This document shows positions 16,501-26,923 of a stretch of 64,000 nt of DNA, one piece after another. Below the pieces are notes generated by a model. That model was not told the origin of the DNA, made no database searches, and saw only the letters and a program-made list of their open reading frames with translations. The DNA is from a virus (lineage: Duplodnaviria; Heunggongvirae; Uroviricota; Caudoviricetes). Numbering within the stretch: the first letter of the stretch is position 1; the number at the start of each line of letters is the position of its first letter. The translations under genes were made by a program, and so were the position numbers. The DNA lies in the IMG/VR virus record IMGVR_UViG_2939127364_000001; one strand, written 5' to 3'.

Positions 16501-18296
16501 CGAACGCGCATAGGTTCGAGATCTGGTTCTGTAATTGTCCAGACACCGTTCAAAACAGGCGTTTCCGCTGACGACAGGGCTTTTGAAAACGTAACTTTTG
16601 TTATATTTTCGCCAGTTTCAAGAACATCGCGTTCAACGATTTTGCCTTCCTGATTCAGTATTCGAATAAAGCAGCCGCCTTTGGCTAACGACACAGGCGC
16701 ATCGAGTGTGACGCTGTTTTTGGTAAACGCCACAATTCGACCTGAGTTACGTTTGCCTGCGCGATATTTGTTCTGAATCAGAACGGTTTCACCAGGCATC
16801 AGAAATGACGCGTCTAAGCCAGCAGTAAATGTAATTACATCCGACTCCATTCTGGCGGTATATAAAAGCCACAAACCAACTCGGTGAGCCTGCCCTCGGC
16901 TTGTACAGCCAAATGCTACGACTTCTGTTTTACGCTCACCATAACGGCGCATTGCGTCCTGATCTTCGACGTACTCGATGTTTTGCTTATAACCGTCCTC
17001 CTTGTTGTTGTAGGTTACGAGCGCAACGGATGGGCGATCTTTACGCGCAGAACCTTTATAGGTAAACAATCCATCTTTGACGTTAGAGTTGGTAAACATC
17101 ATTACCGGATCTGATGGGCTATCCTGCATGATGTTGACCATCCCACCAGCCCAAAACACCATGCCGCGGAATGCTCCGGCAATATCCTGAATTAGCCGGT
17201 ATGCGTCCTGTCGACTGGTGATCTGCGTATTGATTGCAAAGCGTTTCTCTTTGCCACCAAAGCCATCATCGACCTCTTCGTCACAATATCGACCAATCTG
17301 GTACAACTGGCCAAGGTCAATCATAGATTCCGACACATACTGACCAAGGCCATATCGAGCATTGGTCAGCAAATCAAAGAGAATCCACGCGGGGTTCGAA
17401 GAAGACAACAGCTTAAAAGTGCCATCCCATACCCCAGCGTAAGTGTTACTGGACTCGTTATAGTTTGAAGGTACTCGAATTTTTAGGCCACGCACCAGAT
17501 AAGAGCGAGATGGCATGGTGCTGCCGAATTGCTCAGAGTTTACCTTCAATCCAACCAAAACAGAGTTTGGATAGTTCATCGGTGTATCGACAATTTCCCC
17601 GATTGAATCCACCCATGTATCGTTATAGAGATACTGGCTACTGTTATCATCGGTAATACGGACCACACGAACCTTGTATGCGCGTCCAGGCTTAGGCAGC
17701 TTCAGCTCGTAGCTACGGTAATAAACGCCGGTCTTCTTTGCTGTTAGCTTAATGCCAACGCTTTTTTCACCTTCCGCGACCACATCTACAAATGTTGAGT
17801 CGCCATTTGCTATCTGGAACTTGTACTCAACAGTCGTACCGTTCGTGTCACCAGTTTTTTTATCTATGCTTCGCAAAGAAGGAAACTTCATGATGACACG
17901 AACCCGATCAGCTTCATCGTTATCGATTGAAACCGTTACATAATGTGTTTTTTTTAACTGGATATTGACGGATTTAGGCGTTTCAACGAAATCAAAGCCA
18001 GACATTGGAGTCTGGTCTTGTGAACCGTCGCGAAAATCCCATGTGATTCCGCTGAAGTTGGAGGAACCGTCTTCATTTACAATCGGCAGATCGTCGATAA
18101 AAATAGATCTTGCGCCATTTACTAAGCCGCCAATTACCCCTTCCCCAAGAAGATCGAGGATAGCGGCCATTGCACGAGAATTTACGGTATCGTCGGCTTC
18201 AACCGGTGTACGGCTGGAGCTTTTGCTGCTTTTTTTACCACCCGCACCGGCAATAAACAGCGGTAGCTTTTTCTTCTTGAACTGTTCCATGTTCAA
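13563..18296 (-). CDS. Tail tip / host-specificity protein (lambda J-like) with a long central coiled-coil repeat region
   Basis: 1577 aa; N-terminus resembles J-family proteins; position immediately after the I-like gene; central ~33-aa repeats. Confidence 0.85.
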   Translation of the reverse strand: MNMEQFKKKKLPLFIAGAGGKKSSKSSSRTPVEADDTVNSRAMAAILDLLGEGVIGGLVNGARSIFIDDLPIVNEDGSSNFSGITWDFRDGSQDQTPMSGFDFVETPKSVNIQLKKTHYVTVSIDNDEADRVRVIMKFPSLRSIDKKTGDTNGTTVEYKFQIANGDSTFVDVVAEGEKSVGIKLTAKKTGVYYRSYELKLPKPGRAYKVRVVRITDDNSSQYLYNDTWVDSIGEIVDTPMNYPNSVLVGLKVNSEQFGSTMPSRSYLVRGLKIRVPSNYNESSNTYAGVWDGTFKLLSSSNPAWILFDLLTNARYGLGQYVSESMIDLGQLYQIGRYCDEEVDDGFGGKEKRFAINTQITSRQDAYRLIQDIAGAFRGMVFWAGGMVNIMQDSPSDPVMMFTNSNVKDGLFTYKGSARKDRPSVALVTYNNKEDGYKQNIEYVEDQDAMRRYGERKTEVVAFGCTSRGQAHRVGLWLLYTARMESDVITFTAGLDASFLMPGETVLIQNKYRAGKRNSGRIVAFTKNSVTLDAPVSLAKGGCFIRILNQEGKIVERDVLETGENITKVTFSKALSSAETPVLNGVWTITEPDLEPMRVRIVNIAQGETPGSFDITAVENNPSKYEAIDNGATLIPQNTTVLDPTYSKPSNLQITEGTYLSSPGNLSVKLTATWEGKSPEYWISWRRSDENNISNWQSARVTEEQYEIVNVAENGRYDFQLYAVSFNGKKTEIISTVYQVLGTMTPPDAPTSLTAVGDYRNVILNWVNPDSVDLDHINVYASQTNNLDTAKLIAESASTTFTHAGLGDSETWYYWVRASNKRGMLSPPNSNLGTEATTRDVLSFLTGKITSSELGQALLEDINSKASQEAVDELNEHINQSVESLEGAVNDVKEDIAELDKQFSDNLADFEIKFNERSDALENAQTELKGEVSATIDKVNEAFEKIDATDAAIVEIENTVSEHDKALANTVEAIKAARDEAAALIAKESEARVEGDAANAKQLEVLQSTVEESSAAVEEMKKTVAEVDRASAELTTNIEALAKTNIDLALRQDEDQHKQMVNNAKIATTQKTFADDMSAMATKVEEIRVEIGEDIKASILEESTARADGDEALAKRVTQLQSKFEGDISAAISTEQEARTSADEALTTQITQLESKVSNDIVAAIKEEQEARATEDSALASQITQLQAKVDDDISAAIRSEQEARASGDSALAKQINQLQSKVDGDISAAITQEQEARASADQALSREINSLRAQTGTDIAAAVAVETKARTDADSALSTQITSLTAKANDLEASLARETTARADGDTALTKEVSNLKAQTAKDISAAVAVETQARTDADSALSSQITKLTSQYKEDIKAAVATETKTRTDQDAALATQITNLESQTAANISAAVTTETTARTQADNALSGRIDTLKAEVDGNTATIQQQATAIADTNKKVSTAWTLKMETSTSGGQKYVAGIALGIDTTGLSQFLVQADRFGLVNSVNGKITTPFVIENSIAYMNGAYIKDGTITNAKVGDLQSTNFVSGRSGWRFGKNGTLEINGNSGGNGRLVINGQRIDVYDDNNVLRVRIGRL
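14000..15010. repeat. Tandem ~99-bp (33-aa) degenerate repeats inside the J-like gene
   Basis: About 10 repeats of ALxxQITxLxxKVxxDIxAAIxxEQEARxxxD in protein; visible DNA periodicity. Confidence 0.6.
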
Positions 18297-18307
18297 AAAA
18301 TCCTTGT

Positions 18308-18901
18308 TTACATTAGCTGGTCAATCGTGATTGAAGAACTCACAACCTGTGAGCCAACCAGAATTTCCTCGCCATAGATAAGTTGTACTGGGTTGCCCTG
18401 GTTTTCTGTATTTTGAGGGCCGTCGAAATAATAAGAGTTCGAGTTATCTGCCTGTCTCACACTTTCGTTAGTGGCTTGCGGCGATATGATTTGTGATATG
18501 CCGCCCATCATCAGTGACAAACCGAGAGGTGCTAAAGCAGGCATCACTACCGCCGATACAACCAACAAAGCGGCCCCTACTACCGTCTGAAACCACCCAA
18601 AAGCAGATCCACCGCTTCCTCGCGGAACAGGTGTAATGCGGATTTTGGCAATGTTGTCAGACTGCCCCATCATCTGATATTCACTTTCGTCAACAGACCA
18701 CTTGTGGCCCTGTTTATTGGTGATCTGGATGTGGTAACGGTCATAGGTTTTGATATTGCGCTTCATCCATGCTTTAAACCCAGGCTTGTTGGCCTCAATT
18801 AAATCCAGAGCCTGTTTTGTATTGCGCACCTTTAGATGCCAGTGGCGGCCAAAATGTTTGGCCATAGGGCCGCCAAGCTGCACATGAACTAACTCAGACA
18901 C
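18308..18901 (-). CDS. Tail assembly protein (lambda I-like)
   Basis: 197 aa with hydrophobic C-terminal region; conserved I-K-L-M order. Confidence 0.7.
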   Translation of the reverse strand: MSELVHVQLGGPMAKHFGRHWHLKVRNTKQALDLIEANKPGFKAWMKRNIKTYDRYHIQITNKQGHKWSVDESEYQMMGQSDNIAKIRITPVPRGSGGSAFGWFQTVVGAALLVVSAVVMPALAPLGLSLMMGGISQIISPQATNESVRQADNSNSYYFDGPQNTENQGNPVQLIYGEEILVGSQVVSSSITIDQLM

Positions 18902-19713
18902 GTCTCATCTCCCTTGAGCAAGTCTCTGTGACGCAAGTGATGCGTCGTATGTTTCTGATACATTCCGCCGTAATAAGCACGACAACTAAGACGGTCGATC
19001 TGGTGATGAAGAATCATTCCATCGCCGATATAAACCGCGCAGTGATCTGGCATTTTCCCGTATTGAATAAAGAAGACGTCCCCACGTTGAGGCTCTGTTC
19101 CAGGCGCAAGCCGTACCAATCCTTCGTTTCGGTAGTTCTGGTCGAGAATGTCGTTATCGCCGGTGTACCACGATGGAATATGCAGGTGTGCGTTCGGGTT
19201 TAGTTCGACGTTAAACTCACGCTTCAAATAGTCCCGACACAACATCCAGCAATCGAATACGCCAAATACATACGGTCTGCCCAGGTATGGCATTTCGAAA
19301 CCATCAGGTGTGATCACATTCATCTCGCTAAAATGGAAAGGGGCATCTCCCTCAACATTCTTGCGAATAGCCAGAATCATCCACGGAACTTCCGTCGCTT
19401 CGCAGCCTGCACGATCGGCATCAGATGCTTCTGCTGATTCATCAGTATGTGAATGCCAGATTGCGATAACATCACCCGCATCCTCTGCCGCCATAATGTC
19501 GTCAACGTGCATTACAAAAGTGTTCTGCGGGTTCTCCGAAACATTCCGCGCTTCCATAAAGCGATATTTGTCGCCATTAGTTCTAACCAGAAAGCCACAC
19601 GCTTCATTAGGGTAGCGATTTATGGCGCAGAGATAGATTTGCTGCATAACGTCAGAGCCAAGCTCAGGGATTGCTTTATTACCCATACCGCGTAGCTCCA
19701 ATAAATCCGCCAA
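18889..19713 (-). CDS. Tail tip assembly protein (lambda K-like; JAB/MPN plus NlpC/P60 domains)
   Basis: EACGFL...HSHTDE JAMM-like motif and a C-terminal Cys/His NlpC-like region (DCWMLCRDY...H). Confidence 0.8.
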   Translation of the reverse strand: MADLLELRGMGNKAIPELGSDVMQQIYLCAINRYPNEACGFLVRTNGDKYRFMEARNVSENPQNTFVMHVDDIMAAEDAGDVIAIWHSHTDESAEASDADRAGCEATEVPWMILAIRKNVEGDAPFHFSEMNVITPDGFEMPYLGRPYVFGVFDCWMLCRDYLKREFNVELNPNAHLHIPSWYTGDNDILDQNYRNEGLVRLAPGTEPQRGDVFFIQYGKMPDHCAVYIGDGMILHHQIDRLSCRAYYGGMYQKHTTHHLRHRDLLKGDETCLS

Positions 19714-20837: not shown

Positions 20838-23800
20838 TTAGTTACGTTGAGTGTTTGGGTTGAGTGATCCGCCAGGGCGTTTCTCTTGAGCGATAGTCTC
20901 AAGCGCGATTGCTTTCATCCGTTGAGCGGCATTGTTCCATATGCTTTCTGTATCGCCGGATTCAGTTGTGCTACCGTCACTATGGACGTTGATCTCAATT
21001 GATACCGGAGAAAGAACATTTCCTCCTCCACTCATACCATCGGTACTGAGCGTTACAGGGATTGTTCGACCATCAGGCAATGGAACATACGCCTCATTCA
21101 TATCGCCTTCCCCAAACAACGCCAATTGAGGTGAGTTGGCGATACCGCCTTTCTGGTATGCCCGGAGCGGGATCACGCCGTCTTTTCCGAATATGCCACC
21201 ATTTGCAAACTTCGGAATTGCAGGAATACCATTCGTGCCATCGGCAGCAGAACTGGTCAGATTGTTGAACCCGGAAGTTGAGCCAGAAGAACCGGACATC
21301 AATCCATCGAATCCACCACCAGCCCATACTGAAACCAAACCAGATGCAACTGTTGCGCCGAAATTCAACCACTTATTACCAGAGCCGGAAGCATTAGCTC
21401 CAAGCATTGCAAACGCGGCAGACAGCGCGCCGGTAACAGAACTGAGGTTCTGCATCGAGAAGATGGAGTCCTTCACGGCTTTTGTCTCGGCATCTTTGGC
21501 TTCAGTGCTATCAAATAGCCCTGATACCCAGCTACCAATCGCATTTGTTGCAGTGCCAATTGCGCTGGTGGTCTGCTGTGTTGTTTGCCCCAATCCAGTT
21601 ACCGAACTGGACGTCTCCTTCGTGGCTTCTCCTACCGACTTGTCGCCATTAACAGTGTTGCTTATGCGCACACCTTGATTGGCAACGGCGGAAGCAACCC
21701 CGGTGAGCAAATTACCACTCTGTGAACTACCAGCTGCGGTGGTTCCCATCCCCAACATGTTCATTAGAGGCAGCGTGATCTGCGACTTCACGACCATATT
21801 GGTGATATCTTTCAAAATGGACTGAGACAGGCTGGAGAAGCTCATCTTCCCGTTAATAACGAAATCAGTCAGGACATCAGTTAAGCCACTAAACAAATCA
21901 GTCCAGGTGCTTTCGATCTGCTCTGCCAGGTTTTCGTATTCCAGTGCCAACTTCTGCGTCGCAGTCCCCGTCTCTTTAATAAGCGCGGTATTGCCAGCAG
22001 CAATAAGTTGATTGATCTTTTTATCGAACAACTCAATCTGGCTTTGTGAGGCTGTGCCTGACTCAATCGCAGCTTTACGTAAATCCATCAACGCTTTAAG
22101 GTTGCGATTATAGGTTTCTTCGAAATCAGCAACTTTCTCTTCACGAGACGGCGTATAGCCAGCACTAATAATGGAATCCGCCTCCGGTGCCCAAGTGGAG
22201 ATCATCTGCTCAACATTGCGGCGATTAAACATCTCGCGATATTCAGGTGTCGCATTTTTGAGGTCTTCAAGACGTTTTTTCGCCTTGTCGATCATCTCTT
22301 GAGTGATGAACTCGTTAGGAACCGCATTAGCCAAATCTGTCAGCGATTTCGTTGTATCGCGAAGAGACTGATCAAACGATACCGTAGCCTTAGAGCTTTC
22401 ACCCATTTGCCCCATAAGCTGATCGGCTTTGTCCAGAGCCTTCTGATATCCGGCCGCCAGTTTCTGTTGCGCTGCCTGTTCTTTCTTTGCTGCTCTCTCG
22501 GCTGCTTTTGCGGTACGGTTTGCTGCCTTATCTGCTGCTTCTGCATCAAGTTCACGAGCTTTTGTCAGAGTCTTAATTACTGCGATGCGGTCATTTTCTG
22601 ACAACTGCTCTAATTTCACATCACCGTAAATTTTCTTCTGTCTTAATTGCTCCTTGAGTTGTCGAGGCCCAACAACAGGTTGACCTTGTAAGTCGTATAA
22701 TGCGGTACCATCGAGATTGACTCTTTGATACCTTTTAGAGTCCATCTGCTGTTTCCAAAAACCAGTCATAGTTTTGGAATTAGCATCAACTGGTGTGCTT
22801 GAAAACTCACCAATTTTACCGCCATTAATAGAAACCAAGCCGTCCCCAGCTTTCACGCTAAGACTGATTTCAAGGTTCTCCATCCCCTCTTTTACAATCT
22901 TCAAAGCCTCGGTGGTGGCGTCTATCTTTGTCTGGGCTTCTTTTTGCCCCTGCATATCGTTCGACTCTTGGGTCTTTTTGAGCTCTTCAGAGTATGTGGC
23001 GAGTTCACCAAGCCCCTTCTCATAACGAGCTTTATACCCTTTGAGTTTTTGCTCGTCGGCCTGGGCGTACAAACGTCCAAGTTCTGCGTTGTTTTCTGCC
23101 CTTAATTTGCTTTTTTCGTGGTCGGACAAGTCCGACCGCGCGGCAATTTTCTCATTGCTTTTGGTGAGTCTTTCTATCTCTTTGGCGACTGAGGCTATTA
23201 ATGCATTCCCTTTCTGGTTGACCGCATCAATATCCTCTCTATATTTCTTAGTAATGCTTTGTTTGATGGTTTCGGCTATGCCGCCATCAAGAGCTTTGGC
23301 GACTTCCTCTCTTTCTTTTCGCGCTTTTTCCAGTTTCTTTTTGCTGTCGTCAACATCGACACCAACTTCGTACGGTCCCGTGTATGCTGAAAAATGCAAG
23401 GTTTTGCCAGTCTCGACTTCTTTTTCCAGTCTGGAGATCTCTCGATCTTTCTTGCTCAGTTCGCTTTCCAGCATCGCGCGATCTGCCTGCGTCATCGCTT
23501 CAGGGATTTCTCTGACTTTGTTTACAACGTCTTCGACTTTCTTCCTCAGACTGCTCATGTGCCAGATCAGCGTCGAAACCGCCGTTACCGCAGCAGTAAA
23601 GAAGAACCCTATAGGGTTTGCAGCCATGAACGCAGTCAAGCCAGCAAATGCATTGCGAATAGCAAAAATCAATGCAGGGATGGTAGATAGTCCCATGCGT
23701 GAGGCTCGATTGAAGCGTTTAACGGCTGTCGTCGCAAGATCAAATGTCCCCTGTATTGTGGTGGATACCGTAGCAAAGGTGCTGATCATGCTATTAGCAG

Positions 23801-25421
23801 TGCCAATGACACCAGAAATCCCCGATTTGAGGAGTCTGAAGGCCATCGTGACAGCGACGGCTTTGCCGAAAGTGACAACAAGCTCCTGGTTTTTAATCAG
23901 CCATTTCGCCAGGTCACGCAAACCATCAATAGCCGTCGTCAATCCGCTTCCCAACGAGTGAGCAAAAGATGTACCCTCTGCGCTATTCATCAGGGAGGTG
24001 AGTTCTTTCATTCCCTCTCTTAAAGAAGACAAATAACCAGTCTGGCCTACTTTGTCCGCGAACAGCGTAAAGGCTGTCTTCATTTGCGCCAACGTACCGG
24101 TAAATGTGTTCATCATTTCGGACGCAGCTCCCTCGTTCTGCATCTTCAACTCTTTGAACATAAGTGCCAGTGCGTTTTTGGCTTCTACCGTTCCAGATGC
24201 TACAGCTTTAGTTAACTCGCCCATTGTCAGACCAGCAGCCTTGGCCATTGCGTTCATTGCTGTCGGAATCGCCTCACCTAATTGCTGGCGAAGCTCTTCC
24301 ATCGATACAACACCCTTACCAGACATCTGCTGAACAGCAATGGATGCACGCTTCAGAAGTTCGCTATCACCACCAAAACGAGCAACGGAGTCCACCAGCG
24401 CCTTCAGAGAACCATCGGTTGGATCTAAGCCAGCAGAACGAAACTTCACGAAGGAGTCTGTTAACGCCTGCATCGCGAACGGCGCATTTTGAGCCATGTC
24501 TACGATGTACTTCATATCATCAGCGGCAGCCTGGCCCGGGTTGGACTTCTCCTTATTCAACCCTCGAAGCATCACCCGCATACGTTCCATTTCGGCCGCA
24601 GCTTCAACAATAGGCTTCTGCCACCCAAACATGATGTCAGTAACCGTTCTGGCTGCATCTCCGATCTCGCCAAGCAGGAAAATGTTGCCACGAAGGCCAG
24701 AGAACATACCTCCTTCGTTACTTTTACCGCTATGGCCAGAAGCGCCGCTACGCCGCCCGCTACCACCATCGCCACTTCCAGATGTACGAACGCGTACCGG
24801 CTTGCTAATCAGTTGCTGACGTCCGATAACTTCGTCCATCTGCTCACGAACCTTTTTCAGTCCCTCGGCAGCCTGACTCGTTGTGACACCCCAATTACTG
24901 AGTCGCTTCGTCGTGGTATTAAGGCGCGTATTCATGCCACTCACGGACGCAGAGGCTTCTTTGACCTCCGTACCAAAGCGGCTTGCGCTTTTGCTTGCAT
25001 AGGTCGCCCAATCAGAGAAATCATTTAGCTCTGATTGCACTTTACGTAATGACGCGGTGAGTTTATCTACTGAAGAAGTTGTCGTATCGACGCGCTCAAT
25101 CAGGGCTTTAAGACCAGAATTGAGGCTGGTGATGTTGCCACGCATTTTACGCGTAGCATCTGAAGCAAGCTCAAAACCGGCAGCTACATCCTGTAGTTTA
25201 TCTGCCGTAGAATCGAGCTTGCTTTCCAGAACGCCAATGATACGGGCGACCGAACCCAAAGAGCGTTCAAAGGTTTGGATTTTTTGAGCAGGCTTTGTTA
25301 CCTGCTCACCAAATCGAGTAAGCAGTTTCCCCGCACGATCGATTGACGCTGTAAACTGTTTGTCTTCCAGCGACAGGATAAACTCTACGTTTTGTGACAT
25401 TCCCTTGTCATCCTCTGCCAA
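20838..25421 (-). CDS. Tail tape measure protein
   Basis: 1527 aa, highly alpha-helical and Ala-rich with Gly-rich C-terminal region; located between the G/T chaperone and M. Confidence 0.85.
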   Translation of the reverse strand: MAEDDKGMSQNVEFILSLEDKQFTASIDRAGKLLTRFGEQVTKPAQKIQTFERSLGSVARIIGVLESKLDSTADKLQDVAAGFELASDATRKMRGNITSLNSGLKALIERVDTTTSSVDKLTASLRKVQSELNDFSDWATYASKSASRFGTEVKEASASVSGMNTRLNTTTKRLSNWGVTTSQAAEGLKKVREQMDEVIGRQQLISKPVRVRTSGSGDGGSGRRSGASGHSGKSNEGGMFSGLRGNIFLLGEIGDAARTVTDIMFGWQKPIVEAAAEMERMRVMLRGLNKEKSNPGQAAADDMKYIVDMAQNAPFAMQALTDSFVKFRSAGLDPTDGSLKALVDSVARFGGDSELLKRASIAVQQMSGKGVVSMEELRQQLGEAIPTAMNAMAKAAGLTMGELTKAVASGTVEAKNALALMFKELKMQNEGAASEMMNTFTGTLAQMKTAFTLFADKVGQTGYLSSLREGMKELTSLMNSAEGTSFAHSLGSGLTTAIDGLRDLAKWLIKNQELVVTFGKAVAVTMAFRLLKSGISGVIGTANSMISTFATVSTTIQGTFDLATTAVKRFNRASRMGLSTIPALIFAIRNAFAGLTAFMAANPIGFFFTAAVTAVSTLIWHMSSLRKKVEDVVNKVREIPEAMTQADRAMLESELSKKDREISRLEKEVETGKTLHFSAYTGPYEVGVDVDDSKKKLEKARKEREEVAKALDGGIAETIKQSITKKYREDIDAVNQKGNALIASVAKEIERLTKSNEKIAARSDLSDHEKSKLRAENNAELGRLYAQADEQKLKGYKARYEKGLGELATYSEELKKTQESNDMQGQKEAQTKIDATTEALKIVKEGMENLEISLSVKAGDGLVSINGGKIGEFSSTPVDANSKTMTGFWKQQMDSKRYQRVNLDGTALYDLQGQPVVGPRQLKEQLRQKKIYGDVKLEQLSENDRIAVIKTLTKARELDAEAADKAANRTAKAAERAAKKEQAAQQKLAAGYQKALDKADQLMGQMGESSKATVSFDQSLRDTTKSLTDLANAVPNEFITQEMIDKAKKRLEDLKNATPEYREMFNRRNVEQMISTWAPEADSIISAGYTPSREEKVADFEETYNRNLKALMDLRKAAIESGTASQSQIELFDKKINQLIAAGNTALIKETGTATQKLALEYENLAEQIESTWTDLFSGLTDVLTDFVINGKMSFSSLSQSILKDITNMVVKSQITLPLMNMLGMGTTAAGSSQSGNLLTGVASAVANQGVRISNTVNGDKSVGEATKETSSSVTGLGQTTQQTTSAIGTATNAIGSWVSGLFDSTEAKDAETKAVKDSIFSMQNLSSVTGALSAAFAMLGANASGSGNKWLNFGATVASGLVSVWAGGGFDGLMSGSSGSTSGFNNLTSSAADGTNGIPAIPKFANGGIFGKDGVIPLRAYQKGGIANSPQLALFGEGDMNEAYVPLPDGRTIPVTLSTDGMSGGGNVLSPVSIEINVHSDGSTTESGDTESIWNNAAQRMKAIALETIAQEKRPGGSLNPNTQRN

Positions 25422-25677
25422 ATATTTGCATCAGTTGCTCTTTGGCGTCAGGGTCTGCCTTATCCTGGCTTGGATCGTAGACTTTATCTGTTACGACTGG
25501 TCTTCCAATCCTGAGTTGCAAACCCTCCATGAACGCCTTCACAGCCTCGCCATCCGCCTGGGACGCACGAGCGACTTGTAAGTTGCGGACATCCTCTTCC
25601 GCACGCAGACGGTCTATATTGCGACTGAGCATCCAGAACATCGTGAGAGGAACGTTCAGTAGCTCTAATGGCGACAC
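25408..25677 (-). CDS. Tail assembly chaperone T segment (expressed as G-T fusion by -1 frameshift)
   Basis: The -1 frame relative to the upstream G-like gene is open from within its 3' end through to 25408 with no stop; arrangement as in lambda G/GT. Confidence 0.5.
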   Translation of the reverse strand: MSPLELLNVPLTMFWMLSRNIDRLRAEEDVRNLQVARASQADGEAVKAFMEGLQLRIGRPVVTDKVYDPSQDKADPDAKEQLMQIFGRG

Positions 25678-25757
25678 GGCGTAGTGAGCAACTACACGAC
25701 TGAAATAGAATCCGAGATCTATTGAGACGGTCCTTGTCCCGGATTCATCGCGGGAAA

Positions 25758-26075
25758 TTACTTTGCCCCTTCGCCAGCCGCTTTTTCGTTTTCTTCATCA
25801 ATCACTTCCATAGCGAAGGTGAAGATCTGCTGGAGTTGCGGAACAGTCAGTTTTTCAAGAACTTCGTCAGGTACTGAAGGGATAACCTTACGAACCAGAT
25901 CTGCATAAGCTGTCACTTGCTCAACAGGAGACATGTTCATGAGATCTTTGCCTTCCATCTGCTTGATGGAAACAAAGAGGCCGACGGTCATTTCAACGAT
26001 GGGATATTCTTTGCCACCAAATTTGATGCTTTTTTTCGGCGGCAGAATGGAGTCGAGATCGAGTAATTTGGTCAT
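25758..26075 (-). CDS. Tail assembly chaperone (lambda G-like)
   Basis: 105 aa, acidic C-terminus; between major tail protein and tape measure. Confidence 0.6.
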   Translation of the reverse strand: MTKLLDLDSILPPKKSIKFGGKEYPIVEMTVGLFVSIKQMEGKDLMNMSPVEQVTAYADLVRKVIPSVPDEVLEKLTVPQLQQIFTFAMEVIDEENEKAAGEGAK

Positions 26076-26100
26076 GGTTTAAATCCTTTTAAACTCATAC

Positions 26101-26122
26101 AGAGGCCCATCCATGGGCCTCT
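26101..26122 (-). terminator. Hairpin after major tail protein gene
   Basis: agaggccca-tcca-tgggcctct, 9-bp stem; weak U-tract. Confidence 0.35.
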
Positions 26123-26136
26123 TGGGTTATCACAAT

Positions 26137-26883
26137 TTAGCTTGCGGCAGTTACAGAGACGGCTTTGGTCGCCTTCTTGGCACCGTCATTAGTTGTGAAG
26201 GTGATATTGGCTGAACCGACAGCTTTACCAGTTACCAGTCCGTTCTGATCTACGGTCGCTTTATCAGTCGCATCAGAGCTCCACACGCCAGTCTTATTGG
26301 TTGCATCGGCCGGGGTGAAGGTTGCGCTCAATTGAACTTTAGTGCCCACTTTTACGGTCGGTGAAGACGGGGTCAGCGTGACGCTCTCAACCGGCTTTGG
26401 GAGGCTCATTTTCCCCAACACGCCAGCGTCGTCCGGGTAAGCGGAAAACTCAACTGAGAACACGCGAACGTCGTCAGACTGGTAGGTCATGGTGAAGTTA
26501 CCCGCGGTTGCTGCTTTAGGGATGGTCAGAACATAATCCGTCGCATCCTGCGGGGTCAGCACCAACTCTTTCGCAACGTCGATCAGGTTCACTCCCTGCG
26601 CAGACGTGATGGTTACGGTATCTTCGCCAGAACTCAGCGTGGAACCTGGCATCAGATCGACCATGTTTTTCAACACGGATTCAGCCAGCGGCGCAGTAAT
26701 GGTGATGTTGCGGCCCTGGATCAGCTCGGAGATCGTGGTCTGGCCCAGCTGGTCTACGGTCACTTTCAGCGTTTCGGTTGCGATTTCAACCTGAACACCA
26801 CCTTTGGTGTAACCCAAATCCACACCACCAAACGACACCTTACAGGCACCAAGTTTGATGTTTTTTACATGGGTATTAGACAT
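26137..26883 (-). CDS. Major tail (tube) protein with C-terminal Ig-like domain
   Basis: ATG at 26883 preceded by AAAGGAG (the track start at 26919 is probably too long); C-terminal ~80 aa resembles bacterial Ig-like folds. Confidence 0.7.
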   Translation of the reverse strand: MSNTHVKNIKLGACKVSFGGVDLGYTKGGVQVEIATETLKVTVDQLGQTTISELIQGRNITITAPLAESVLKNMVDLMPGSTLSSGEDTVTITSAQGVNLIDVAKELVLTPQDATDYVLTIPKAATAGNFTMTYQSDDVRVFSVEFSAYPDDAGVLGKMSLPKPVESVTLTPSSPTVKVGTKVQLSATFTPADATNKTGVWSSDATDKATVDQNGLVTGKAVGSANITFTTNDGAKKATKAVSVTAAS

Positions 26884-26923
26884 TGATGGAAAACTCCTTT
26901 TTCCGTTAATTCTACGCATTCAT

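What the first reader, a model, noticed from the sequence alone, without database searches (positions are those of the whole stretch)
25408..26075. Predicted -1 programmed frameshift joining the tail chaperone G-like and T-like frames
The -1 frame is open from within the 3' end of the G-like gene through to the stop at 25408, so a -1 shift near 25760-25800 would yield a G-T fusion as in lambda. I could not identify a canonical X_XXY_YYZ heptamer; a GAAAAAG stretch is present but not in classic register.
Basis: partly seen in the sequence, partly recalled or inferred. Interest (0 to 1): 0.35.

Follow-up and report, generated by a model that had tools for sequence, protein, structure and literature searches.

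The report
Tail chaperone G-T frameshift, non-canonical site
This SSU5-type phage-plasmid almost certainly makes its tail-assembly chaperone in a short and a long form by a -1 ribosomal slip on the last codon of the short gene; the trick is well known from phage lambda, but here it is unannotated and uses a minimal A_AAG-stop signal instead of the usual seven-base slippery site.

Summary
On the minus strand, a 105-codon gene (26075..25758) lies between the major tail gene and the tape-measure gene. Its -1 frame is open from 25794 to the stop at 25410..25408.

The interpretation, a lambda-like G/GT programmed -1 frameshift, is strongly supported by comparison but has not been tested by experiment.
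- T is in the -1 frame of G in more than 100 SSU5-clade loci and in 14 of 14 distant lineages.
- The 81 nt after the G stop have no conserved start codon, yet evolve as T-frame coding sequence.
- In many relatives a -1-frame TGA lies 10 nt before the G stop. This confines the shift to the last three codons.

The only invariant element there is NNA_AAG followed directly by TAA or TAG (window 25764..25758). It is an in-register A_AAG tetramer, and it sits where distant relatives carry canonical G_GGA_AAG, G_GGA_AAC, C_CCA_AAG or A_AAA_AAA. The GAAAAAG run is not the conserved site.

The predicted products are G (105 aa, 11.7 kDa) and GT (222 aa, 24.8 kDa). A partly covarying hairpin follows the site, but its role is unproven.

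Verdict: an ordinary kind of feature and a new, unannotated member with a degenerate signal. Interest is low to moderate.

The parts
26137..26919 (-). Major tail protein gene with a C-terminal Ig-like (Big_2) domain. It is the upstream neighbour of G.
   Evidence: ORF. PF02368 Big_2, 4.9e-23; phrog_1280 plus several 'major tail protein' PHROGs.
25758..26075 (-). G-like tail assembly chaperone gene: 105 aa, 11.7 kDa, pI 4.7, with an acidic C-terminal tail ...EENEKAAGEGAK.
   Evidence: phrog_893, unknown function. No Pfam or NCBIfam hit. AlphaFold2 model at pLDDT 72; its best BFVD match is 'Tail assembly chaperone', E 7.5e-4, and 10 TAC-named proteins are among the top 50.
25758..25764 (-). Proposed shift site A_AAG followed by UAA. 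AAG is 25763..25761 and the stop is 25760..25758. After the slip the ribosome reads AAA (25764..25762) and then GUA (25761..25759).
   Evidence: NNA AAG TA(A/G) is present in 88 of 88 fetched loci and in 27 of 27 distinct junctions. A -1-frame TGA 10 nt upstream of the G stop in SSU5, pMT1 and others confines the shift to this point. L110 has G_GGA_AAG TAA at the same place.
25761..25767 (-). Degenerate heptamer G_GCA_AAG, which is the canonical G_GGA_AAG with one mismatch in the P-site codon.
   Evidence: The first base and the P-site codon vary across the clade (G/A/C; GCA/GTA), so only A_AAG is conserved.
25408..25761 (-). T-like part, read only after the shift: 117 codons (VISRDESG...IFGRG) plus TGA. 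The GT fusion is 222 aa, 24.8 kDa.
   Evidence: phrog_1131. tblastn shows homology across the whole T frame in Nickievirus, Rhizobium and Stenotrophomonas phages. Coding signature in the start-less part.
25678..25760 (-). Start-less stretch between the G stop and the first T-frame start codon. It encodes the conserved motif VSIDLGFYFSRV.
   Evidence: variable columns by T-frame codon position are 14/7/24; the T frame has 37 synonymous versus 27 amino-acid changes and no stops, whereas the other two frames have 15/50 and 9/54 and contain stops. D15 and F18 are invariant across 7 lineages.
25781..25787 (-). It is out of register as a heptamer and contains the weak in-register tetramer A_AAA (25785..25782). 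It is not the conserved site.
   Evidence: In SSU5, pMT1 and about 40% of clade loci a -1-frame TGA lies between this run and T.
25708..25746 (-). Conserved hairpin: GAAUCCGGGA (25746..25737) pairs with UCUCGGAUUC (25717..25708), with a 19-nt loop. It begins 14 nt after AAG.
   Evidence: RNAalifold finds it on its own. 96.7% of cells are paired, 3 pairs show compensatory changes, 0 of 500 shuffles reach the observed pairing or covariation score, and the slid controls peak sharply at 0. Energy is -11.9 kcal/mol here and -13 to -17 (z -3 to -4) in Photorhabdus and Xenorhabdus.
25695..25752 (-). Possible outer extension of the hairpin: CGCGAU (25752..25747) with GUCGUG (25700..25695). It would bring the base of the structure to 8 nt after AAG.
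   Evidence: -16.9 kcal/mol, z -1.5. 88.9% paired but no covariation, equal to the shuffles. Weak.
25737..25755 (-). Alternative small hairpin UCCCG/CGGGA, 5 nt after AAG. It competes with the conserved helix or could form an H-type pseudoknot with it.
   Evidence: -7.3 kcal/mol, z -2.1. No covariation, and the outer pairs are only 70% paired.
20838..25400 (-). Tape measure protein gene. ATG 25400 is the start used in RefSeq relatives; the longest ORF begins at TTG 25421. It begins 7 nt after the T stop.
   Evidence: PF20155 TMP_3 5.3e-26 and PF09718 Tape_meas_lam_C 6.1e-13. Annotation of relatives.

Best explanation
The window is the tail module of an SSU5-type phage-plasmid, with the gene order major tail protein, G, T, tape measure.

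**Proposed mechanism**
- Most ribosomes translate the 105-codon G gene and terminate at UAA (25760..25758). This yields the 11.7-kDa chaperone.
- A minority slip back one base on the last sense codon. Lysyl-tRNA(UUU) decoding AAG (25763..25761) re-pairs with AAA (25764..25762).
- The next codon read is then GUA, and translation continues for 117 more codons to TGA 25410..25408.
- The result is a 222-aa (24.8 kDa) G-T fusion. T has no start codon of its own and is made only in this way.

**Nature of the signal**
- It is an in-register A_AAG tetramer (a Z_ZZ.N-type motif) placed directly against the stop codon.
- It is the degenerate descendant or counterpart of the G_GGA_AAG heptamer that relatives carry at the same position.
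- The slip may occur with AAG in the A site (tetramer mode) or with AAG in the P site while the A site waits on the stop ('shifty stop' mode). Both give the same protein.
- A conserved hairpin downstream may enhance the slip.

**Expected function**
By analogy with lambda G/GT, the G moiety would bind the tape-measure protein and the T moiety would recruit the major tail protein, with the G:GT ratio set by the shift frequency.

**Shown here by computation:** the frames; the absence of a start; coding conservation in the T frame; confinement of the shift to the last three codons; invariance of A_AAG plus stop; canonical heptamers in relatives.

**Inferred, not shown:** that the slip happens; its frequency; which tRNA site is involved; the role of the hairpin; the protein functions.
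For: 1. **Synteny:** the order major tail (Big_2), G, T, tape measure (TMP_3, Tape_meas_lam_C) is present.
2. **Frame:** T is the -1 frame of G here, in 88 of 88 SSU5-clade loci, in 9 plasmid or phage relatives, and in 14 of 14 distant lineages: L002-L006 and L106-L114.
3. **No own start:** the first T-frame start codon wanders (+26, +83, +101, +113, +131 nt after the G stop), while the peptide VISRDESG..VSIDLGFYFSR is conserved. There is no SD-like sequence before GTG 25677 or ATG 25632.
4. **Coding signature in the start-less 81 nt:** variable columns by codon position are 14/7/24. Synonymous versus amino-acid changes are 37/27 in the T frame, against 15/50 and 9/54 (with stops) in the other frames.
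5. **Confinement of the site:** a -1-frame TGA 10 nt before the G stop in SSU5, Y. pestis pMT1 and others leaves only GGG GCA AAG as possible shift codons.
6. **Invariance of the junction:** it is (GCA|GTA) AAG TA(A|G) in 27 of 27 distinct sequences, down to 49% T identity, while the preceding codon varies (GGG/GAG/GAA/GAC). GCA is only 26% of Ala codons and GTA only 24% of Val codons in these genes.
7. **Canonical heptamers at the homologous place in relatives:** L110 G_GGA_AAG TAA; L106 G_GGA_AAG; L109, L112, L107 and RHEph10 G_GGA_AAC; V1VFA-S G_GGA_AAG; Nickievirus C_CCA_AAG; L111, L113 and ANB28 A_AAA_AAA.
8. **Motif precedent:** A_AA.G is by far the most shift-prone tetramer in E. coli, reaching 5.6% with a strong 3' stimulator, and it is used by IS elements (PMC4066793). 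Lambda needs only a G:GT ratio of about 30:1 (PMC5009743).
9. **Fold:** the G model resembles proteins named tail assembly chaperone.
10. **Downstream hairpin:** it is conserved and partly covarying.
Against: - There are no experimental data of any kind.
- No canonical heptamer is present. In E. coli reporters, tetramers without a stimulator were barely above background.
- The only helix with covariation starts 14 nt after AAG, outside the usual 4-10 nt. The nearer pairings (5 nt and 8 nt) show no covariation.
- For the helix, the two more robust covariation measures are not significant (70/500 and 110/500 shuffles). Its energy in this window is unremarkable (z -1.4).
- No conserved upstream SD-like element was found.
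- G and T match no Pfam or NCBIfam family. The G model has no PDB match.
- No natural in-frame G-T fusion was found among the best 150 of 411 homologues.
Confidence: 0.82

Rival explanations
1. T is an independent small protein translated from an internal start (GTG 25677, or ATG 25632 as in RefSeq/GenBank records). The sequence between the G stop and that start would be non-coding.
For: Public records annotate it this way: 74-77 aa 'hypothetical protein'. Many distant T homologues are called with an N-terminal 'Met' 1-4 residues before the ID(F/L)GF motif. One relative (L107) has an ATGA overlap and ANB28 has TAATG.
Against: The annotated start lies inside the conserved PLxxFWMLSRN motif, and conserved residues D15 and F18 lie upstream of every candidate start. 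The start position is not conserved. The upstream 81 nt evolve as coding sequence in the T frame. There is no SD-like sequence. In 7 of 9 looked-up relatives the called 'Met' is a GTG that is the conserved Val codon of V-S-I-D, and homology continues upstream of it.
Confidence: 0.05
2. T is made by termination-reinitiation. Ribosomes finishing G at UAA restart on the overlapping AUU (UAAUU, at the place of AUG in the common UAAUG coupling), giving a free 116-aa T.
For: AUU, AUA or AUC overlaps the stop in most clade members. The UAAUG and AUGA couplings seen in ANB28 and L107 also put the downstream gene in the -1 frame.
Against: In 4 of 27 distinct junctions the stop is UAG and the next codon is GUU, which is not a start. 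AUA and AUC are very poor starts. Distant relatives place canonical heptamers 3-27 nt upstream of the G stop, with T-frame homology and no start codon nearby. This rival does not explain why the third base of codon 104 is always A.
Confidence: 0.05
3. In this particular window the shift happens mainly upstream, at the in-register A_AAA inside GAAAAAG (25785..25782) or at A_AAC (25791..25788). The product would then be ...EENEK-SGWRRGKVISRD....
For: The -1 frame is open from 25794 in this window and in 47 of 88 loci. A_AA.A is one of the six tetramers above background in E. coli.
Against: The other 41 of the 88 clade loci have a -1-frame stop downstream of this run (a TGA 10 nt before the G stop in 36 of them, including SSU5 and pMT1), so it cannot be the conserved site. 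A_AA.A is the weakest of the active tetramers and A_AA.C is inactive. L008 and L009 lack the run altogether (GAA GCC).
Confidence: 0.05
4. The long form arises by transcriptional slippage (RNA polymerase adding or removing an A), not by ribosomal slippage.
For: Some relatives have long A runs at the site: A8-A9 in ANB28, L111 and L113.
Against: In this window the site has only three consecutive A. From general knowledge, efficient transcriptional slippage needs roughly 7 or more identical bases. Most relatives use G_GGA_AAN.
Confidence: 0.02

Closest known systems
Phage lambda G / GT tail assembly chaperone frameshift (Levin et al. 1993; Xu, Hendrix & Duda 2004, 2013, 2014; as summarised in PMC5009743)
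   Same: Two overlapping ORFs lie between the major tail gene and the tape-measure gene. The second ORF is in the -1 frame and has no start codon. The shift occurs near the 3' end of G on a Lys codon (AAG). A low-frequency fusion is expected. The G protein is small and acidic.
   Different: Lambda uses the canonical heptamer G_GGA_AAG. Here the P-site codon is GCA or GTA, so only the tetramer A_AAG can re-pair well, and the G stop follows the shift codon immediately. There is no detectable sequence similarity to Pfam TAC families. Nothing has been tested experimentally.
Distant members of the same G/T family with canonical heptamers (metagenomic L110 G_GGA_AAG-TAA; L106; L109/L112; Rhizobium phages RHEph10 and V1VFA-S; Pseudomonas Nickievirus)
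   Same: The G and T proteins are homologous, the gene order is the same, T is in the -1 frame, and the slip codon lies in the same C-terminal tail of G. L110 and L111 also have the slip site abutting the stop.
   Different: They keep a full X_XXY_YYZ heptamer. The SSU5 clade (and, independently, L108 with C_GCA_AAC) has lost P-site re-pairing.
Z_ZZ.N tetramer -1 frameshift signals of IS1/IS3-family elements, A_AA.G type (Sharma et al. 2014, PMC4066793)
   Same: An in-register A_AAG serves as the sole slippery element. It relies on the shiftiness of lysyl-tRNA(UUU) in enterobacteria. Efficiencies are in the low per-cent range.
   Different: The gene system is different (transposase versus tail chaperone). 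IS tetramers are paired with strong hairpins or pseudoknots 4-10 nt downstream. Here the supported helix lies 14 nt away.
Bacillus subtilis cdd -1 frameshift at CGA AAG (Mejlhede, Atkins & Neuhard 1999, cited in PMC5009743), and 'shifty stops' (Weiss et al. 1987)
   Same: The site is of the NNA_AAG type without P-site re-pairing. In the shifty-stop concept, an adjacent stop codon could act as the pause (the content of these two papers is from my own knowledge; only the citations were seen).
   Different: cdd uses an upstream SD-like stimulator, and none is conserved here. A contribution of the stop codon is untested.

Membership tests
Phage tail assembly chaperone G/GT programmed -1 frameshift (Xu et al. 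2004 class) | Two ORFs lie immediately between the major tail protein gene and the tape-measure gene. | tested here: met
   Big_2/major-tail PHROGs upstream, TMP_3 plus Tape_meas_lam_C downstream.
Phage tail assembly chaperone G/GT programmed -1 frameshift (Xu et al. 2004 class) | The second ORF overlaps the 3' end of the first in the -1 frame and lacks its own start codon and RBS. | tested here: met
   34-nt overlap, first start 83 nt downstream, no SD.
Phage tail assembly chaperone G/GT programmed -1 frameshift (Xu et al. 2004 class) | The two-frame arrangement is conserved across diverged relatives. | tested here: met
   more than 100 loci in the clade; 14 of 14 distant lineages in the -1 frame.
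Phage tail assembly chaperone G/GT programmed -1 frameshift (Xu et al. 2004 class) | A canonical slippery heptamer X_XXY_YYZ lies in the overlap. | tested here: not met
   none in this window, only tetramers. It is met in distant relatives. This is usual for the class but not strictly defining, because non-canonical sites are known (PMC10885494).
Phage tail assembly chaperone G/GT programmed -1 frameshift (Xu et al. 2004 class) | The G protein belongs to a recognised TAC sequence family or fold. | tested here: inconclusive
   No Pfam or NCBIfam hit. PHROG families are of unknown function. No PDB match by Foldseek or by profile. The BFVD best hit is named TAC at E 7.5e-4, TM about 0.5, with 10 TAC-named proteins in the top 50. 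The model pLDDT is only 72.
Phage tail assembly chaperone G/GT programmed -1 frameshift (Xu et al. 2004 class) | The fusion protein is detected at a few per cent of G and is required for tail assembly. | not testable with these tools
   Needs western blot or mass spectrometry and genetics. No paper in the library links SSU5 to a frameshift or to its tail chaperone.
Z_ZZ.N tetramer -1 frameshift signal (Sharma et al. 2014) | The tetramer is in register: Z is the last base of the 0-frame codon and ZZN is the next 0-frame codon. | tested here: met
   GC[A_AAG] at 25764..25761.
Z_ZZ.N tetramer -1 frameshift signal (Sharma et al. 2014) | Reduced variability at the synonymous sites of the motif. | tested here: met
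   The third base of codon 104 is A in 27 of 27 distinct junctions, and AAG in 27 of 27. In the adjacent T-frame coding stretch, 24 of 27 third positions vary.
Z_ZZ.N tetramer -1 frameshift signal (Sharma et al. 2014) | A stimulatory RNA structure starts 4-10 nt downstream, or an SD-like element lies 6-17 nt upstream. | tested here: inconclusive
   The helix with covariation starts at +15, that is after a 14-nt spacer. Candidate pairings with 5-nt and 8-nt spacers lack covariation. There is no conserved SD.

The most novel reading that the evidence does not exclude
The SSU5 clade has replaced the family's ancestral G_GGA_AAG heptamer with a minimal 'A_AAG plus adjacent stop' signal. This signal would work by single-tRNA (P-site) slippage while the ribosome waits on the termination codon. 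It would be tuned by a conserved hairpin placed unusually far downstream (14 nt), just outside the paused ribosome. That would be a distinct, termination-coupled regime of tail-chaperone frameshifting, not a weak copy of the lambda mechanism. The stop is never UGA, although that change is silent in both frames, which would fit a role for the stop codon.
Probability: 0.3. Interest if true: 0.45.

Novelty: new member of a known kind. Interest (0 to 1): 0.3.

Why it matters
**Annotation.** The same locus is present in at least 784 PLSDB plasmids and 12 phage records, including Salmonella phage SSU5 and Yersinia pestis pMT1. In every row inspected it is annotated as two unrelated 'hypothetical proteins', with T truncated inside a conserved motif. 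Recognising the G/GT pair gives both genes a function and corrects the T product from about 75 aa to a 222-aa fusion.

**Method.** This is a clean natural example of a frameshift site that heptamer-based predictors miss. The PRFect motif list has no tetramer class. The -1-frame stop codons in relatives act as a natural deletion series that pins the site to three codons.

**Mechanism.** The family offers matched pairs, G_GGA_AAG-TAA versus G_GCA_AAG-TAA. These could be used to measure how much P-site re-pairing, an adjacent stop and a distal hairpin each contribute in enterobacteria.

It does not change what is known about tail assembly.

Tried and rejected
- **Family searches for G and T:** Pfam and NCBIfam gave no family. 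PHROGs gave only families of unknown function.
- **Rfam** on 25350..26150: no match.
- **Foldseek of the G model against PDB, and a profile search against PDB sequences:** nothing significant.
- **The search for homologous proteins with the 222-aa fusion:** only 6 odd, chimeric or error-ridden ORFs. P0001 is a G ORF shifted into T by an apparent 1-nt deletion in the A run and then shifted out again. It was treated as a sequencing artefact and not used as evidence.
- **Search for a natural in-frame G-T fusion** (HMMER against 1.84 billion representatives): none in the top 150.
- **The search for related loci with the 7-lineage T alignment:** It was repeated with a 4-sequence alignment.
- **GAAAAAG as the shift site:** rejected as the conserved site because of the -1-frame TGA in relatives.
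- **Upstream SD-like stimulator:** AGGGG directly precedes the site in this window, but it is replaced by GAAGAA, GAAGAG or GAAGAC in relatives and is too close. It was rejected as a conserved element.
- **Small hairpin UCCCG/CGGGA and outer stem CGCGAU/GUCGUG:** no covariation, indistinguishable from shuffles. They are kept only as possibilities.
- **Whole-region folding energy:** not different from shuffles (z -0.6 and -0.3).
- **Terminator and promoter scan of 25300..26300:** nothing relevant.
- **'Met' near the ID motif in distant T proteins:** examined as evidence for independent translation and rejected. The codon is mostly GTG, the conserved Val.


Full report
**What the window is.**
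The region is 90-97% identical in DNA to Salmonella phage SSU5, Escherichia phages CMS-2020a and Cyrano, and Klebsiella phage-plasmids. It is 100% identical to an E. coli plasmid. In total 784 PLSDB plasmids carry the locus, among them Yersinia pestis pMT1.

All the genes involved lie on the minus strand:
- a major tail protein with a C-terminal Big_2 domain (26919..26137);
- a 105-codon ORF (26075..25758), here called G;
- an ORF ending at 25408, here called T;
- a 1520-aa tape-measure protein carrying TMP_3 and Tape_meas_lam_C domains.

Public records call G and T 'hypothetical protein'. They start T at an internal ATG or another internal codon, giving 74-77 aa.

**Check of the observation.**
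- The frame that ends at TGA 25410..25408 is the -1 frame of G.
- It is open for 128 codons from 25794, so it overlaps the last 34 nt of G.
- Its first ATG/GTG/TTG is GTG 25677, 83 nt beyond the G stop.
- The overlap holds no in-register X_XXY_YYZ heptamer.
It does contain the weak in-register tetramer A_AAA.
- The last two sense codons of G, GCA AAG, form an in-register A_AAG tetramer directly followed by TAA (25764..25758).

**Is T really translated from the G stop onward?**
Four lines of evidence say yes.
- A tblastn search with the whole 128-codon T frame found Pseudomonas (Nickievirus), Rhizobium and Stenotrophomonas phages. Their matches span the annotated upstream gene's end and the downstream ORF, so the homology covers the part that has no start codon.
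- In an alignment of seven lineages, the invariant residues D15 and F18 (motif IDLGFYFSR) lie upstream of every candidate start.
- Among SSU5-clade plasmids at 70-91% DNA identity, the first T-frame start codon sits at +26, +83, +101, +113 or +131 nt after the G stop, while the peptide VISRDESG..VSIDLGFYFSRV is kept.
- Over 23 distinct sequences, the 81 nt following the G stop vary at T-frame codon positions 1/2/3 in 14/7/24 columns. The T frame shows 37 synonymous against 27 amino-acid changes and no stop. The other two frames show 15/50 and 9/54 and contain stops.

Neither GTG 25677 nor ATG 25632 is preceded by an SD-like sequence. The stretch is therefore coding, in the T frame, without a start of its own.

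**Where the shift must occur.**
- In SSU5 itself, in pMT1 and in roughly 40% of 88 further loci from IMG/VR and GTDB genomes, a synonymous GGC to GGT change in G creates a TGA in the -1 frame 10 nt before the G stop.
- In those genomes a ribosome can enter the T frame only within GGG GCA AAG. This excludes the GAAAAAG run as the conserved site.
- Across 27 distinct junction sequences, the junction is always (GCA|GTA) AAG TA(A|G) T. These sequences reach Photorhabdus, Morganella and Xenorhabdus plasmids with only 49-69% T identity.
- The codon before it is GGG, GAG, GAA or GAC.
- The third base of codon 104 is silent in G and untranslated in T, yet it is A in every case. GCA and GTA make up only 26% and 24% of Ala and Val codons in these genes.

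The conserved element is thus A_AAG plus the stop, not a heptamer.

**The wider family.**
A HMMER search of 1.84 billion representatives with the predicted fusion found 411 homologues. All were either G-only or T-only. I fetched DNA for nine of them and five annotated phages. In 14 of 14 lineages T is in the -1 frame of G, and a slippery motif sits in the acidic C-terminal tail of G:
- G_GGA_AAG directly before TAA (L110);
- G_GGA_AAG one codon before the stop (L106);
- G_GGA_AAC (L107, L109, L112, RHEph10);
- G_GGA_AAG (V1VFA-S);
- C_CCA_AAG (Nickievirus);
- A_AAA_AAA (L111, directly before TAA, with the -1 frame opening only 7 nt earlier; also L113 and ANB28);
- the degenerate C_GCA_AAC (L108);
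- GCA AAG TAG (L114, SSU5-type).

L106 reads ...K-GITRNESGEVVAIDLGFY after its heptamer, against K-VISRDESGTRTVSIDLGFY here. The AAG of this window is therefore the homologue of the AAG of a textbook G_GGA_AAG.

Many T homologues are called with a 'Met' 1-4 residues before the ID motif. This first looked like evidence for independent translation. In 7 of 9 cases the codon is GTG, the conserved Val of V-S-I-D, with homology continuing upstream. I read this as a gene-caller artefact.

**Mechanism proposed.**
- Lysyl-tRNA(UUU) on AAG (25763..25761) re-pairs with AAA (25764..25762).
- GUA (25761..25759) is read next, and translation runs to 25408.
- The products are G (105 aa, 11.7 kDa) and GT (222 aa, 24.8 kDa).
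- In E. coli reporters A_AA.G is far the best of the 16 tetramers. It reaches 5.6% with a strong 3' pseudoknot but is near background alone, and it is used by IS elements (PMC4066793).
- Lambda needs only a G:GT ratio of about 30:1 (PMC5009743).

The slip could occur with AAG in the A site, or in the P site while the A site holds the stop. The second is the 'shifty stop' of Weiss et al. 1987. Only the citation was seen; its content is from my own knowledge. Both routes give the same protein, and I cannot distinguish them.

**Downstream RNA structure.**
- RNAalifold on the 27 junctions predicts one helix: GAAUCCGG(GA) at 25746..25737 pairing with (UC)UCGGAUUC at 25717..25708.
- On the 10-pair version, 96.7% of cells are paired and three pairs show compensatory changes. 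One pair is U-A in 22 sequences, G-C in 3 and A-U in 1.
- None of 500 shuffles reaches the observed pairing or covariation score, and sliding the 3' arm destroys the signal.
- The two more robust measures are not significant (70/500 and 110/500). The sequences are related, so the support is moderate, not decisive.
- The helix is stronger in Photorhabdus and Xenorhabdus (-13 to -17 kcal/mol, z -3 to -4) than here (-11.9, z -1.4).
- It starts 14 nt after AAG, beyond the usual 4-10 nt.
- Two nearer pairings exist in this window: a 5-bp hairpin 5 nt after AAG, and an outer 6-bp stem that would bring the composite structure to 8 nt. Neither shows covariation.
- No upstream SD-like element is conserved.

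The stimulator question stays open.

**Identity of G.**
- G and T hit only PHROG families of unknown function, and no Pfam, NCBIfam or PDB sequence.
- An AlphaFold2 model from a 15-sequence alignment (pLDDT 72; a beta-hairpin plus four helices) has no PDB match by Foldseek.
- In BFVD its best match is a protein named 'Tail assembly chaperone' (E 7.5e-4), and ten of the top fifty carry that name.

Together with position, size and acidity, this supports a chaperone role. Membership of a known TAC sequence family is not shown.

**Rivals.**
- Independent initiation of T, about 0.05. See above for the evidence against it.
- Reinitiation on the AUU that overlaps UAA, about 0.05. The codon is GUU in four distinct junctions, and this rival does not explain the invariant A of codon 104.
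- A shift at the upstream A_AAA in this window, about 0.05 as the main site. A minor contribution in this lineage cannot be excluded.
- Transcriptional slippage, about 0.02. Only three consecutive A are present.

**Comparison and novelty.**
This works like lambda G/GT and is a member of that class by synteny, frame relation, lack of a start and conservation. It fails one usual feature, the canonical heptamer. In that respect it resembles A_AAG tetramer sites of IS elements and the CGA_AAG site of B. subtilis cdd. I found no paper that links SSU5-type elements to a frameshift or names their tail chaperone.

I rate it a new, unannotated member of a known kind. Its signal is degenerate and could be of modest interest to people who study recoding. 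Its practical value is for annotating a very widespread plasmid-prophage family.

Noticed in passing
window 26101..26122, minus strand (between the major tail gene stop at 26137 and the G start at 26075): There is a perfect 9-bp GC-rich hairpin, AGAGGCCCA-UGGA-UGGGCCUCU. The 76-nt intergenic region folds at -24.4 kcal/mol with z -3.7. No T-run follows and no terminator was called. A second hairpin puts G's SD (AGGA) in its loop and pairs the AUG. This could be an attenuator or RNA-stability element that sets G/T/TMP expression below that of the major tail protein.
   Followed up: partly
window 26030..26036, minus strand (G codons 14-16): A run of seven A (CCG AAA AAA AGC) contains an in-register A_AAA early in G. 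It may be prone to slippage or sequencing error. One database ORF (P0001) appears to be shifted by an indel in the other A run, near codon 98.
   Followed up: no
window 25759, minus strand (second base of the G stop): The stop after A_AAG is TAA or TAG and never TGA in 27 distinct SSU5-clade junctions. An A-to-G change at this base would be silent in both frames (TAA/TGA stop; GTA/GTG Val). A GTG there would create a start codon for T, or UGA may be disfavoured for the shift. This is unexplained.
   Followed up: partly
window 25708..25746, minus strand: The only helix with covariation begins 14 nt after the slip codon. That is too far for a classical -1 stimulator but close to the 3' edge of a ribosome paused on the stop. 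Its function is unexplained.
   Followed up: partly
protein P0043: A 3150-aa database protein matches the T part of the query in 13 separate stretches (best stretch: query 98-190, 26% identity). It could be a repeat protein or a compositional artefact.
   Followed up: no
L010 (Y. pestis CO92 pMT1, 17976-19290) and other RefSeq plasmids L007-L014: PGAP starts T at an ATG inside the conserved PLxxFWMLSRN motif and calls both genes 'hypothetical protein'. The same mis-annotation appears in every row inspected, out of 784 plasmids carrying the locus.
   Followed up: yes
L108 (Logan SRR28386220 contig), G/T junction: A second, independent lineage has a degenerate site with the same P-site codon (C_GCA_AAC, where its close relative L107 has G_GGA_AAC). 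GGA to GCA degeneration of the heptamer may therefore be recurrent in this family.
   Followed up: partly
window 25398..25421, minus strand: The T stop (TGA 25410..25408) lies 7 nt before the tape-measure ATG (25400), with AAGGGA as its SD. The longest TMP ORF (TTG 25421) would overlap T. The start used by RefSeq relatives is the ATG.
   Followed up: partly
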